Shown: one piece after another, positions 6,813-9,681 of the stretch
How the letters are laid out: the number at the start of each line of letters is the position of its first letter
How positions within the stretch are numbered: position 1 is the first letter of the stretch
NCBI GenBank assembly: GCA_964477885.1
Contig: CAYZHR010000001.1
Coordinates: 1-25,267, forward strand
Direction: 5' to 3'
DNA length: 25,267 nt
From: an uncultured Candidatus Saccharibacteria bacterium
Lineage (GTDB): Bacteria; Patescibacteriota; Minisyncoccia; Minisyncoccales; MHMH01
Made by a program: the position numbers and the translations under genes
The notes under the pieces: generated by a model
Seen by the model: the letters and a program-made list of their open reading frames with translations, nothing else
Told to the model about the DNA's origin: nothing
Databases searched by the model: none

Positions 6813-9152
6813 TTATTTTTTGACCTTTGCTATTTTTAATATTGTTTTAATAACGGCGTCGGGAGTTAAAGACATGCTCTCTATTCCCTCTCGGACCAGA
6901 AATTCGGCGAACCCCGGCAGAGAAGAGGGAGCGTCGCCGCAAATGCCGCAGTATTTTTTTCTTTTTCTGCACTGCCGGATCACTTGGGCAATCATCTTTT
7001 TGACCGCTTCATTCTGCTCATTCCCCACATAACTTATTTTAGCACTATCTCGGTCAATTCCCAAAGTTAACTGTGTCAGGTCGTTGGAACCTATGCTCAT
7101 CCCGTCAAAAATCTCCAAGAATTCTTCCACCAAAACAACGTTGGAGGGAATCTCGCACATCACAATAACCTTCAAGCCGTCTCGGCCTTTTTCCAGGCCC
7201 GCTTCTTTCATTATTTTCAATATTTTTTTGCCTTCTTCCGGTGTGCGGCGGAAAGGCACCATGGCCCAGATGTTTTTCAGACCGAACTCCTCTCTGGCTT
7301 TTTTCAAGGCTTGGCACTCCAAAAGAAAAGCCGGCTTGAACTGCGCGTCATAGTACCTGGAAGCTCCCCGCCAACCCAGCATGGGATTCTGTTCTCGCGG
7401 CTCAAATTCTTCACCGCCGGACAAAGCCGCATATTCGTTGGTCTTAAAATCAGAAAAACGAACGATCGCCGGATAGGGCCAAAAGGCAGCGGCTATCTGG
7501 CCTATGCCTCTGGCTAATTCATCGACAAACTGTTGGCTCTTGCCCTGTTTTATCAAAGCTAAAGGATGAACTCTGATTTTTGAAGCAATAATAAACTCTT
7601 CCCGGGCCAGACCAACGCCGCGATGAGGCAAAAAAGAATTGCGAAAAGCTATTTCGGGAGTGCCGATGTTGACCATTATTTTAGTTTTGATTTTAGGTAT
7701 CTTCTTCAAATTGTATTCTTTCTCCTGCCACTTAACTCTTCCCTGATAAACCCGGCCAACCTCTCCGGAAGAACAATCCATGGTTATCAATTGACCGTTT
7801 TTTAAAATTGAAGTGGCTCTTCCTGTACCCACAATGCAAGACACTCCCAACTCCCGGGAAACGATGGCCGCGTGAGAAGTGCGGCCGCCCAAATCGGTAA
7901 TAATGCCGGCAGCCTTCTTCATAATCGGCTCCCAGTCGGGATCGGTCATCGGCGTCACCAGAATTTCACCCGGTTTGAAACCGCTGATTCCTTTCACGTT
8001 TTTGATGACTCTTACTTTGCCGGCTGAGATTTTTTGGCCGACAGCTATTCCCTCGGCTAAAACTTTGTGACTTTTTCCCGGGAGAGTGTATTCTTTGAAA
8101 GTTGTAGGGACTTTTTGCAAGTGAACTGTCTCTGGCCTGGCTTGAACTATGAAGAGTTGCTTTGACAGTCCGTCTTTAGCCCATTCGATGTCCATAGGTC
8201 TCCCATAATGCTCCTCTATTATTTGAGCCCATCTGGCTAAGGCCAAAATTTCTTTCTCTTCCAGGCAGAATTTATCTCTTTCTTCAGTAGGAATGGAAAC
8301 TTGCGCCAAGCCGCTTCTGCCGTAGATTAACTTTTTCCGTTTGGTGCCCAGGTTTTTGACGATGAGGGGGCTGAAGCCTTGCTTTAAAGTCGGCTTGAAA
8401 ACGTAAAACTCGTCGGGAATAATCTTACCCTGCACCACCATTTCCCCCACGCCGAAGGCTCCCGTAATTAAAACCACGTTGCGAAAACCGGTTTCTGTAT
8501 CCAGGGTGAAGATGACGCCGGCTGAACCCTTGTCGCTTCTTACCATCTTCTGAACGCCAATGCTCAAAGCAATTTTCAAATGATTAAAGCCGCCTTTCTG
8601 ACGATAGGAAATGGCTCGATCGGTGAACAAAGAAGCCAGACATTTCCGACAGGCCTCAAAAAGGTCTTCTTCTCCCCGGACATTGAGAAAAGTTTCGTGC
8701 TGGCCCGCGAAGGAAGCCGAAGGCAAGTCTTCGGCCGTAGCGGAAGAACGAACGGCCACATCGGTATTCTGGCCGTATTTGAGACAAAGTTTTTGGTAAG
8801 CTTTTTTGATTTCTTTCTTCAAATTTTCCGGTAATGAAGCGCGCAAAATCAAACTTCTGATTTCTTTGCCGCGTCTCTGCAGGTTTTTGACGTCATTAAT
8901 ATTCAAACCTTTCAAAATATTCCGAATCTTTTCTTTCAGTTTGTTTTTATTGATAAAATGCCAGTAAGCCCGGGAAGTCAAAGCAAAACCATCGGGCACG
9001 CTGATGCCTTTTTTGGCCAAAGTCTTCTGCATTTCACCCAAAGAGGCGTTTTTCCCTCCGACCAAAGGAACATCGCGAGAGGAAATGTCTTTAAACCACA
9101 AAATAAATTTTTTAGATTTTACCCCGTTAGAAGTCTGTTTTATGTAGCTCAT
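6813..9152 (-). CDS. ppsA: Phosphoenolpyruvate synthase (pyruvate, water dikinase); first ~10 codons come from MITE copy C
   Basis: VGGKNASLGEM, AVRSSATAEDLP, GGRTSHAAIVSRELG phospho-His, SIGSNDLTQ. Confidence 0.95.
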   Translation of the reverse strand: MSYIKQTSNGVKSKKFILWFKDISSRDVPLVGGKNASLGEMQKTLAKKGISVPDGFALTSRAYWHFINKNKLKEKIRNILKGLNINDVKNLQRRGKEIRSLILRASLPENLKKEIKKAYQKLCLKYGQNTDVAVRSSATAEDLPSASFAGQHETFLNVRGEEDLFEACRKCLASLFTDRAISYRQKGGFNHLKIALSIGVQKMVRSDKGSAGVIFTLDTETGFRNVVLITGAFGVGEMVVQGKIIPDEFYVFKPTLKQGFSPLIVKNLGTKRKKLIYGRSGLAQVSIPTEERDKFCLEEKEILALARWAQIIEEHYGRPMDIEWAKDGLSKQLFIVQARPETVHLQKVPTTFKEYTLPGKSHKVLAEGIAVGQKISAGKVRVIKNVKGISGFKPGEILVTPMTDPDWEPIMKKAAGIITDLGGRTSHAAIVSRELGVSCIVGTGRATSILKNGQLITMDCSSGEVGRVYQGRVKWQEKEYNLKKIPKIKTKIMVNIGTPEIAFRNSFLPHRGVGLAREEFIIASKIRVHPLALIKQGKSQQFVDELARGIGQIAAAFWPYPAIVRFSDFKTNEYAALSGGEEFEPREQNPMLGWRGASRYYDAQFKPAFLLECQALKKAREEFGLKNIWAMVPFRRTPEEGKKILKIMKEAGLEKGRDGLKVIVMCEIPSNVVLVEEFLEIFDGMSIGSNDLTQLTLGIDRDSAKISYVGNEQNEAVKKMIAQVIRQCRKRKKYCGICGDAPSSLPGFAEFLVREGIESMSLTPDAVIKTILKIAKVKK

Positions 9153-9251
9153 AGTGAATTTCAGATAGATTTTTGTTTTTAGTTTTTACCTCGTTATTGC
9201 CCTGCAGAAAAAATTATCTATAATTTTTTCTGACTAAGACTTCTAACGGGG
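9122..9251. mobile_element. MITE-like element, copy C (130 bp)
   Basis: Same 15 bp TIRs as copy B; TTTA on both flanks (9118-9121 and 9252-9255). Confidence 0.85.
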
Positions 9252-9252
9252 T

Positions 9253-9681
9253 TTATTGGCATTTGGCTGAACTAATAGGATTATCTATTTCCATGGAAAG
9301 GCCGGCCGATTCAACGCACCAGTGATTGCCCGCTTTGGCGACTAAAGGAGTGGAAACAGCGAAGCTTCTCTTGTCGGCACTTTCGTAGCACTTTACCGCT
9401 TGACTGCCGTTTTCTTTTTTAATGGCCGTTTCCAAAAGACCGAAGTCGCCGCTGTTGTTTAAAGTGTTGTCTGACTCGTCGCACACAAAAGTGTAACTCT
9501 CGTTATTGTTGATATAGCTCATTTCAGCCGCATTCCTGACCTGATGCATGAGCGATTGAATATTGGCGTCACTCGCTTGGAACCTGGTACCCCGCACGTT
9601 AACCAAAACAATGGCAGCCAAGAGGCCGATTATGGCGACAACCACCATTAACTCTATCAGGGTGAAAGATTTTGTTTTCAT
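9253..9681 (-). CDS. Type IV pilin-like protein
   Basis: Class III signal peptide SFTLIELMVVVAIIGLLAAIV (Ser rather than Gly before Phe+1); C-terminal Cys pairs. Confidence 0.85.
   Translation of the reverse strand: MKTKSFTLIELMVVVAIIGLLAAIVLVNVRGTRFQASDANIQSLMHQVRNAAEMSYINNNESYTFVCDESDNTLNNSGDFGLLETAIKKENGSQAVKCYESADKRSFAVSTPLVAKAGNHWCVESAGLSMEIDNPISSAKCQ

What the first reader, a model, noticed from the sequence alone, without database searches (positions are those of the whole stretch)
9118..9262. MITE splits the original ppsA start and supplies a replacement in-frame ATG
Seen: removing 9122-9251 plus one TAAA copy gives minus-strand ATG CCA ATA AAA TCT AAA AAA TTT ATT TTG TGG (MPIKSKKFILW). 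This is a plausible PpsA N-terminus whose ATG (9262) overlaps the last codons and stop of the pilin gene. With the element present, that ATG stops after 14 codons (MPINPVRSLSQKKL*, TAG at 9220). An ATG inside a variable block of the element (9152) instead reads through the TIR (MSYIKQTSNGV) in frame into ppsA. In copy B the equivalent ATG (1239) is in another frame and stops inside the TIR (MLNKTDF*). Inference: either selection created or kept a rescuing start, or the element is removed or bypassed (DNA excision, RNA processing, ribosome bypass) to restore the native ORF.
Basis: partly seen in the sequence, partly recalled or inferred. Interest (0 to 1): 0.88.

Follow-up and report, generated by a model that had tools for sequence, protein, structure and literature searches.

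The report
Mobile element replaces a gene's start
A 130-base mobile DNA element landed seven bases into the ppsA gene of an uncultured Patescibacteria bacterium and cut off its start codon, so the gene now most likely starts from an ATG inside the element; the element belongs to a widespread, apparently undescribed family that usually sits exactly on gene start codons and rebuilds them.

Summary
A 130-bp MITE (9122-9251) has perfect 15-bp terminal inverted repeats and a 4-bp duplication (TAAA). It lies between the first 7 nt of ppsA (ATG 9262) and the rest of the gene.

Related genomes without the element settle the reconstruction. There ppsA starts ATG CCA ATA AAG TCA AAA = MPIKSKKFILW (L094) or MPIRSKKYILW (L092), and in L092 it overlaps the pilin gene by 10 nt as in the window.

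- **Fixed insertion:** all six spanning contigs at 99.8-100% identity carry it.
- **ppsA looks functional:** three domains, catalytic motifs, and 6 synonymous to 1 non-synonymous population SNPs.
- **Likely start:** the in-frame ATG at 9152. This is inferred, not shown.
- **Excision, RNA processing or ribosome bypass:** no support.

The element belongs to a family with exact terminal repeats in 74 loci from many Patescibacteria lineages. It normally inserts at A|TGAA of a start codon, so its last G plus the duplicated TG makes GTG in frame (41 ORFs, 40 distinct genes; 25 of 29 TGAA-duplication copies against about 10% expected). All five copies that fail to rebuild a start carry an in-frame ATG, against 5 of 38 that rebuild it. 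The window copy is a near-miss of this kind.

The parts
9122..9251 (-). MITE copy A (130 bp). It faces ppsA in the same orientation as most family copies face their genes: hairpin-1 end far from the gene, hairpin-2 end next to it.
9237..9251 (.). TIR next to the pilin gene (plus strand AGACTTCTAACGGGG).
9122..9136 (.). TIR next to ppsA (plus strand CCCCGTTAGAAGTCT). On the minus strand it is read as T-S-N-G in the ppsA frame.
9252..9255 (.). Target-site duplication, upstream copy (minus strand TAAA). It contains the pilin stop codon TAA (9255-9253).
9118..9121 (.). Target-site duplication, downstream copy (minus strand TAAA). Together with the last G of the TIR it forms GTA, which is not a start codon.
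9218..9262 (-). Stranded native ppsA start (ATG 9262-9260). It now heads a 14-codon remnant ORF, MPINPVRSLSQKKL*.
   Evidence: Orthologues L092 and L094 start at the equivalent ATG.
6813..9152 (-). ppsA as it now reads: 779 aa from the in-element ATG 9152-9150. The first 31 nt are element sequence.
   Evidence: Public gene calls on L075 and L076 use this ATG.
9099..9101 (-). In-frame TTG, the only downstream alternative start before the conserved Trp.
   Evidence: Only 1 of 118 homologues has an N-terminus this short.
9205..9232 (.). Subterminal hairpin 1 (CAGAAAAAATTAT-CT-ATAATTTTTTCTG).
   Evidence: Conserved as a structure in 73 of 78 copies, with 57 different arm sequences.
9253..9681 (-). 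Type IV pilin-like gene. Its last 10 nt overlapped the native ppsA start.
1211..1342 (-). MITE copy B (132 bp; TSD TCAA on the plus strand at 1207-1210 and 1343-1346). It abuts the rpsB start (TTG 1210 / ATG 1207), which stays intact downstream of the element.
1..43 (-). MITE copy C, cut by the window edge. Its 5-bp TSD is TATGA (plus strand TCATA, 44-48), at the former overlap of the tsf stop codon and the next gene's start codon.
   Evidence: The full copy, with a second MITE nested in it, is in L082 3666-3935.

Best explanation
A non-autonomous cut-and-paste transposon (MITE) inserted at TAAA inside codons 3-4 of ppsA (ATG CCA A|TAAA|A TCT). This is 6 nt downstream of the A|TGAA-type start-codon position the family normally uses.

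The duplication kept the pilin stop codon intact but separated the ppsA ATG from its ORF.

ppsA is now most likely translated from the ATG at 9152 inside the element. That replaces the native MPI with MSYIKQTSNGV, an 8-residue net N-terminal extension, ahead of KSKKFILW.

- **Shown:** the insertion, its position, the native start, the fixation of the insertion, and the intact and constrained state of ppsA.
- **Inferred:** the use of ATG 9152, and that selection created or retained it.
For: **Transposon.** It has TIRs, a TSD and three copies in the window. The genome collection holds 74 loci with exact TIRs. Two copies with identical listed interior sequence lie at different loci of one genome, L031 and L069.

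**Empty sites.** L092/L093 and L094 carry the same pilin-ppsA junction without the element and start MPIRSKKYILW / MPIKSKKFILW. The restored N-terminus puts 23 residues before GGKNASLG. Among 118 homologues the median is 22 and 78% fall within 19-24.

**Fixation.** All six spanning contigs, from different samples, carry the element with identical sequence over the 240 nt compared.

**ppsA constrained.** It has three Pfam domains and the motifs GGRTSHAAI and GSNDLTQ. Population SNPs in L075 are 6 synonymous to 1 non-synonymous (p = 0.0013).

**ATG 9152.**
- It is the first start codon after the in-frame TAA at 9188-9186.
- It lies in an unpaired region of the predicted RNA fold, while the junction is buried in the TIR stem.
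- Its A/T-rich upstream region without a Shine-Dalgarno motif is like most genes of this window.
- Gene callers chose it.

**Family pattern.** All 5 copies whose junction codon is not a start carry an in-frame, stop-free ATG, against 5 of 38 copies with GTG. Fisher p = 2.6e-4, or 1.1e-3 if L027 and L065 count as one event. Close relatives of copy A have ATA or CTG at the codon that is ATG in copy A.
Against: - There is no expression, proteomic or ribosome-profiling evidence.
- About 13% of family copies have such an ATG without needing it, so chance is not excluded for a single case.
- The sample of non-rebuilding copies is small: 5 copies, 4 independent events.
- An in-frame TTG at 9101 could serve instead.
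- The 31-residue N-terminus is longer than in 92% of homologues.
- No Shine-Dalgarno motif precedes ATG 9152, although this is normal for this genome.
Confidence: 0.75

Rival explanations
1. ppsA is translated from a downstream start, TTG 9101, which gives MWFKD.... The in-element ATG is then incidental.
For: TTG 9101 is in frame and precedes the invariant Trp. GTG and TTG starts are used in this clade. About 13% of family copies carry an unneeded in-frame ATG.
Against: This would remove the residues before the conserved (I/V)LW. Only 1 of 118 homologues has an N-terminus that short (14 residues before GGK). An upstream in-frame ATG in an unpaired region would normally take precedence. The association of in-element ATGs with junctions that do not rebuild a start would be left unexplained.
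Confidence: 0.14
2. The element is removed or skipped to restore MPIKSKK. The possible routes are precise DNA excision in part of the population, RNA processing, or ribosome bypass from the stranded ATG.
For: The stranded ATG 9262 is still intact. The identical TAAA on both sides could in principle support precise deletion. The element RNA folds into a stable stem (z = -4.6).
Against: - No empty allele was found. All six spanning contigs are filled. The restored junction has 0 hits in metagenome contigs, against 1 hit for the filled junction.
- No Rfam family matches anywhere in the window.
- The 134-nt gap is far longer than the 50-nt T4 gene 60 bypass (from established knowledge).
- The codons at the two sites do not match: AUA at take-off and GUA at landing.
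- The family deals with the problem at the level of start codons.
Confidence: 0.03
3. ppsA is silent or on its way to becoming a pseudogene in this lineage. The open frame from ATG 9152 is then only what remains.
For: The insertion removed the native start, and there is no direct evidence of expression.
Against: The 779-codon ORF is intact, with all three domains and the catalytic motifs. Polymorphism within the MITE-bearing population is 6 synonymous to 1 non-synonymous. The neighbouring gluconeogenic and glycolytic genes are intact (FBPase, GAPDH, enolase).
Confidence: 0.05

Closest known systems
Rickettsia palindromic elements (RPE)
   Same: Both are short palindromic mobile repeats that end up inside protein-coding sequence and are translated as part of the host protein (reviewed in PMC10969869). 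In the Kaiserbacteria subfamily here, the element plus its TSD is 135 nt and open in frame from the original ATG.
   Different: RPEs insert in frame within genes. This family sits at the 5' boundary of genes, usually outside the coding sequence, and rebuilds the start codon. In the window copy only the last 31 nt are coding. There is no sequence similarity.
Neisseria Correia elements (CREE)
   Same: Both are MITEs with TIRs and TSDs, found mostly just upstream of genes, co-transcribed with them, and credited with promoters (PMC10969869).
   Different: Correia elements have 26-bp TIRs and a TA target (from established knowledge), and they do not sit on start codons. A directional promoter in the present family is not shown: promoter-like matches are equally frequent on both strands.
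Neisseria REP2 and Borrelia IR-A/B repeats
   Same: [quoted passage not shown] This is the nearest known case of a repeat donating a start codon.
   Different: REP2 has no TIRs and no transposon signature. In the present family the start is usually made from the last base of the element plus the duplicated target, not carried inside the repeat. An internal ATG is the exception.
IS1380-type insertion sequences, as a possible parent
   Same: Ends beginning 5'-CC and 4-5 bp duplications are what I recall for this IS family (from memory, not tested). Here the ends are CCCC and the TSDs are 4 bp, sometimes 5 bp (TGAAA, TATGA).
   Different: No transposase or full-length element with these TIRs was found, so membership is untested.

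Membership tests
MITE (non-autonomous cut-and-paste DNA transposon) | Terminal inverted repeats | tested here: met
   Perfect 15-bp TIRs in the two complete window copies. The third copy is cut by the window edge and shows one intact TIR.
MITE (non-autonomous cut-and-paste DNA transposon) | Target-site duplication of fixed length | tested here: met
   TSDs are 4 bp, occasionally 5 bp. The two flanking 4-mers are identical in most of the 78 copies.
MITE (non-autonomous cut-and-paste DNA transposon) | Small, no ORF of its own, many copies | tested here: met
   Copies are 125-135 bp. There are 79 copies with exact TIRs in the window and 74 loci, and up to 10 copies were recovered from one genome assembly.
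MITE (non-autonomous cut-and-paste DNA transposon) | Empty sites in relatives, and evidence of recent movement | tested here: met
   Empty pilin-ppsA junctions are present in L092, L093 and L094. Copies with identical listed interior sequence lie at two loci of one genome, L031 and L069.
MITE (non-autonomous cut-and-paste DNA transposon) | An autonomous partner with the same TIRs that encodes a transposase | tested here: inconclusive
   No TIR pair more than about 135 bp apart was found in roughly 560 kb of flanking DNA. Whole genomes could not be searched.
RPE-like in-frame coding insertion | The whole element plus TSD is a multiple of 3 and free of stops in the host frame | tested here: not met
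   Copy A plus its TSD is 134 nt. The frame from the native ATG stops after 14 codons. The feature is met only by the 131-nt Kaiserbacteria subfamily.
Correia element | 26-bp Correia TIR sequence and TA target | tested here: not met
   The TIR is 15 bp with a different sequence, and the TSDs are TGAA, TTGA, TAAA and similar.
REP2-type start-donating repeat | The repeat itself carries a conserved promoter, RBS and ATG, and has no TIRs | tested here: not met
   TIRs and TSDs are present. An in-frame ATG is present in only 10 of 43 gene-adjacent copies.
Programmed translational bypass (T4 gene 60 type) | Matched take-off and landing codons about 50 nt apart, with a stop codon after take-off | tested here: not met
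   The sequence shows AUA at take-off and GUA at landing, a 134-nt gap, and no stop codon directly after take-off.
Self-splicing intron or other curated RNA family | Match to a curated covariance model | tested here: not met
   No Rfam match at E <= 1 anywhere in the window.

The most novel reading that the evidence does not exclude
This is a start-codon-seeking MITE family of Patescibacteria. Its transposition machinery, or a very strong retention filter, places it at A|TGAA of translation starts. It also lands on TTGAC -35-like boxes and on stop/start overlaps.

Its terminal G plus the 4-5 bp duplication rebuilds the signal it hits. Its fixed orientation relative to the gene, and its conservation beyond synonymous sites at orthologous positions, would mean that hosts use it as a portable gene-start module (5' leader, possibly promoter or insulator). 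The window's ppsA would be a case where the rebuild failed and an internal ATG was recruited instead.
Probability: 0.35. Interest if true: 0.8.

Novelty: new variant of a known kind. Interest (0 to 1): 0.62.

Why it matters
For this gene, the case shows how an essential-looking metabolic gene can survive losing its start codon to a transposon, with the ancestral state preserved in relatives.

More broadly, a MITE family that sits on start codons in dozens of housekeeping genes (clpB, nusA, ssb, murG, pgk, parB, ftsK-like, ppsA) has three consequences:
- GTG starts and TIR-derived N-terminal peptides (QTSNGV...) in these genomes are transposon footprints, which matters for annotation.
- It gives a natural system for asking whether transposons can target translation-initiation regions, or are simply tolerated only there in very compact genomes.
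- It may reveal how genes are expressed in organisms that largely lack Shine-Dalgarno motifs.

Tried and rejected
**Alternative history, rejected.** I considered that ppsA originally started ATG AAA TCT (MKSKKFILW) with a canonical A|TGAA insertion, followed by G-to-A changes in both TSD copies. This was suggested by L091 (MKSKKQKYILW) and by L065 and L074. The empty-site orthologues L092 and L094 read ATG CCA ATA A.., which rules it out.

**Searches that gave nothing useful**
- The full-length PpsA homologue search timed out.
- The 250-aa search returned only fragments at 76% identity or less.
- The exact 779-aa product is not on record.
- The parent transposase was not found: there are no distant TIR pairs in the loci.
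- The family is absent from IMG/VR viral contigs, PLSDB plasmids and GenBank phages.
- Rfam gave no match.

**Promoter.** A simple -35/-10 scan of the 78 elements gives 39 hits on each strand. The tool's scan finds no ppsA-ward promoter in copy A. A promoter role is therefore not supported by these scans.

**Literature.** Searches for the TIR sequence, for MITEs in the CPR or Patescibacteria, and for start-codon-regenerating insertions found no description of this family.
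Full report
**1. The observation.**
- ATG 9262-9260 gives MPINPVRSLSQKKL* with TAG at 9220-9218.
- ATG 9152-9150 gives MSYIKQTSNGVKSKKFILWFK and runs on as a 779-aa ORF to 6813. That ORF has PPDK_N, PEP-utilizers and PEP-utilizers_C domains.
- The intervening 130 bp (9122-9251) has perfect 15-bp inverted termini, CCCCGTTAGAAGTCT / AGACTTCTAACGGGG.
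- It is flanked by a direct 4-bp repeat (TTTA on the plus strand, TAAA on the minus strand) at 9118-9121 and 9252-9255.
- The 15-mer occurs five times in the window, against 0.57 expected.
- A second full copy lies at 1211-1342 (TSD TCAA). A third copy is cut by the window start (1-43).
- The gene upstream of ppsA (9253-9681) is a type IV pilin-like protein. Its TAA stop lies in the upstream TSD copy.

**2. The native start: empty sites in relatives.**
Pilin homologues at 69-76% identity led to contigs with the same pilin-ppsA arrangement and no element.
- In L092/L093 the pilin ends ...SAVCQ* (TGC CAA TAA). The public gene call for ppsA begins 10 nt before the pilin's end: ATG CCA ATA AGA TCA AAA AAA TAC ATT CTT TGG = MPIRSKKYILW. 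This is the same overlap geometry as ATG 9262 against the pilin end at 9253.
- More distant relatives (L095, L091) start MKNKKQKYIFW and MKSKKQKYILW after a short spacer.

The element therefore inserted at TAAA within codons 3-4 (ATG CCA A|TAAA|A TCT). I had entertained a different history: a canonical start-codon insertion followed by parallel G-to-A changes. These sequences exclude it. The restored protein has 23 residues before GGKNASLG. The median of 118 homologues is 22, and 78% lie within 19-24.

**3. State of the gene and of the insertion.**
Seven contigs from different samples carry the identical pilin. Six of them span the junction, and all six contain the element with identical sequence over the 240 nt compared. 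The contigs are 99.8-100% identical to the window overall. The seventh contig breaks inside the element.

The restored-junction 28-mer has no hit in the metagenome contig collection, while the filled junction has one. The power of that comparison is low. Copy B is likewise present in all nine contigs that carry the identical RpsB.

PpsA keeps the phospho-histidine motif GGRTSHAAI (position 422) and GSNDLTQ (position 688). Within the MITE-bearing population its SNPs are 6 synonymous to 1 non-synonymous (p = 0.0013 against a 1:3 neutral expectation). ppsA therefore looks functional after the insertion.

**4. Which start is used now (inferred).**
In the ppsA frame the nearest upstream stop is TAA 9188-9186, and the only start codon between it and the junction is ATG 9152. 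The junction codon is GTA.
- In the predicted fold of a read-through RNA, the two TIRs pair and hairpin 1 forms. ATG 9152 lies in the unpaired interior and the junction is buried in the stem (z = -4.6).
- No Shine-Dalgarno motif precedes this ATG. The same is true of most of the 27 genes in the window, whose upstream regions are simply A/T-rich.
- The resulting N-terminus has 31 residues before GGK. That is longer than in 92% of homologues but within their range.
- The only other candidate is TTG 9101. It would give 14 residues before GGK, matched by 1 of 118 homologues.

I put about 0.75 on ATG 9152, about 0.14 on TTG 9101, and a few percent each on bypass or excision and on silence.

**5. 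The element family.**
A scan of one genome per species for both exact TIRs, 85-115 nt apart, found 74 loci. The records are labelled Nealson-, Staskawicz-, Wolfe-, Niyogi-, Kaiser- and Wildermuthbacteria, Parcubacteria, Minisyncoccia, and several bins labelled Saccharibacteria. With the window this gives 78 non-redundant copies of 125-135 bp.

Taking the orientation that faces ppsA and most other flanked genes, the anatomy is as follows:
- the first TIR
- hairpin 1, of the form GC-clamp / A-run / T-run, with a perfect stem of at least 9 bp in 73 of 78 copies against 0.3% of shuffles, and 57 different arm sequences
- in the main subfamily, an internal copy of the terminal octamer TAACGGGG followed by TATAAT
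- a short hairpin 2 with clear covariation (one pair is GC in 14, AU in 13 and GU in 5 sequences)
- TATAAAGAC
- the second TIR

No Rfam family matches. There is no match in viral contigs, phages or plasmids. No autonomous element was found.

**6. The family sits on start codons and rebuilds them.**
In that orientation the commonest arrangement is ...ATGAA | element | TGAA + long ORF. The TSD is TGAA in 27 copies, followed by TTGA (10), then TATG, TCAA, TGGA and TGAG (3 each), and some 5-bp cases.

The last G of the TIR plus the TG of the duplication gives GTG exactly in the frame of the downstream ORF. This holds for 41 ORFs of at least 60 codons, representing 40 distinct genes.

After reconstructing the empty sites, 25 of 29 copies with an intact TGAA duplication lie on the first start codon of such an ORF.
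- Among all TGAA sites in the same loci the figure is 3.6%.
- Among TGAA sites that are either non-coding or start codons it is 10% (binomial p about 1e-21).
- The gene calls behind that null are crude.

The proteins are real and begin where the junction says. SSB, MurG, PGK and NusA align from residue 3-6 to profile position 1-2. ParB, a GT4 glycosyltransferase and an aminotransferase were also recovered.

Orientation is biased 37:4 (p = 1e-7) even though both ends of the element would give G+TG. Eight by-catch copies with imperfect TIRs were not selected by the exact-TIR search, and 6-7 of them show the same arrangement.

A different Nealsonbacteria genome (L048) has an independent, canonical insertion on its own ppsA start: ATGAA|..|TGAAAAATATTCTCTGG, read as VKNILW.

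**7. When the rebuild fails.**
In five copies the junction-frame ORF is long but the junction codon is not a start: window copy A (GTA), L065 (GTA), L027 (GCA), L042 (GCG) and L074 (GTA). All five carry an in-frame, stop-free ATG inside the element. Only 5 of 38 copies with GTG do, and most of those 38 have a stop 5-7 codons upstream. Fisher p = 2.6e-4, or 1.1e-3 if L027 and L065 are treated as one event.

L027 and L065 lie at the same start codon of orthologous glycosyltransferase genes. Their downstream TSD copy has decayed, and both have a conserved MxKQRQTSNG leader.

In copy A, the ATG replaces the ATA or CTG found in its closest relatives. It falls where hairpin 2 is otherwise conserved, and copy A has lost that hairpin.

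In the Kaiserbacteria subfamily (131 nt + 4 = 135 nt) the whole element is open in frame from the stranded ATG, which predicts a 45-residue N-terminal extension.

**8. The other copies in the window.**
Copy B inserted at TTGA directly in front of rpsB, so that GGGG|TTG ATG ACT keeps both candidate starts.

Copy C inserted at TATGA, where the tsf stop (TGA) overlapped the next gene's ATG. The duplication left a stop codon on one side and a start codon on the other. A second family member is nested inside copy C.

**9. Comparison with what is known.**
The nearest known cases are:
- RPEs of Rickettsia, which are translated in-frame insertions
- Correia elements of Neisseria, which are MITEs upstream of genes and carry promoters

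None of these combines TIR/TSD transposition with residence on the start codon and reconstruction of that codon from the element's last base plus the duplication. The TIR sequence does not occur in the searchable literature. A 2024 review of prokaryotic MITEs does not contain the phrase 'start codon'. I therefore class the family as a new variant of a known kind. The ppsA event is a documented rescue within it.

**10. Limits.**
- There is no expression evidence of any kind.
- The family sample was chosen by exact TIRs, although the by-catch copies agree with it.
- Target choice and selective retention cannot be separated with these data.
- A promoter role is unsupported.
- The transposase is unknown.
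- The IS-family suggestion (ends CC, 4-5 bp TSD) rests on memory only.

Noticed in passing
L003, L035, L043, L051, L054, L058, L061, L073 (right flanks of the element): A second target class is TTGA followed by C, giving TTGAC(A) in 7 of 10 TTGA-TSD copies, plus L073. In 7 of 11 cases a -10-like hexamer lies 16-17 nt downstream; L073 has TTGACA-16-TATAAT. This looks like insertion into promoter -35 boxes, with the duplication rebuilding the box.
   Followed up: partly
L009/L034, L018/L059, L027/L065, L072/L074: These are insertions at the same position next to orthologous genes in different species. The element interior is 74-93% identical, while third codon positions of the adjacent gene are only 40-48% identical. 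In L072 both TSD copies are TGAA; in L074 both are TAAA. Either the element re-inserts at the same site or it is under purifying selection.
   Followed up: partly
L048:746-878: Another Nealsonbacteria genome has an independent, canonical insertion of the same family exactly on its ppsA start codon: ATGAA|element|TGAAAAATATTCTCTGG.
   Followed up: yes
L082:3666-3935 (window 1-43 is its edge): Copy C contains a second family member nested inside it. The composite separates tsf from the next gene, whose start formerly overlapped the tsf stop (ATGA).
   Followed up: partly
window 13281-14076: A 238-aa ORF (13325-14041, minus strand) has an IS200-like Y1 transposase domain. Three copies of a palindrome of about 25 nt, CCGACGAGAA....TTCTCGTCGG, are associated with it at 13288, 13843 and 14044. 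This is an unrelated IS200/IS605-like or RAYT/REP-like element.
   Followed up: no
window, start regions of 27 genes: Most genes have A/T-rich upstream regions with no Shine-Dalgarno motif, and 7 of 27 start with ATGAA. This fits Shine-Dalgarno-independent initiation and means the family's preferred target is abundant.
   Followed up: partly
L018, L033 (two copies), L059: This is a GC-richer Kaiserbacteria subfamily in the opposite orientation to its genes. Element plus TSD is 135 nt and open in frame from the stranded ATG, which predicts a 45-residue N-terminal extension of the host protein.
   Followed up: partly
main-subfamily alignment A2, columns 60-76: An internal copy of the terminal octamer TAACGGGG is followed directly by TATAAT or TATAAC, about 60 nt from the gene-proximal end. 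It could be a transposase site, a promoter -10 box, or a trace of a composite origin.
   Followed up: no
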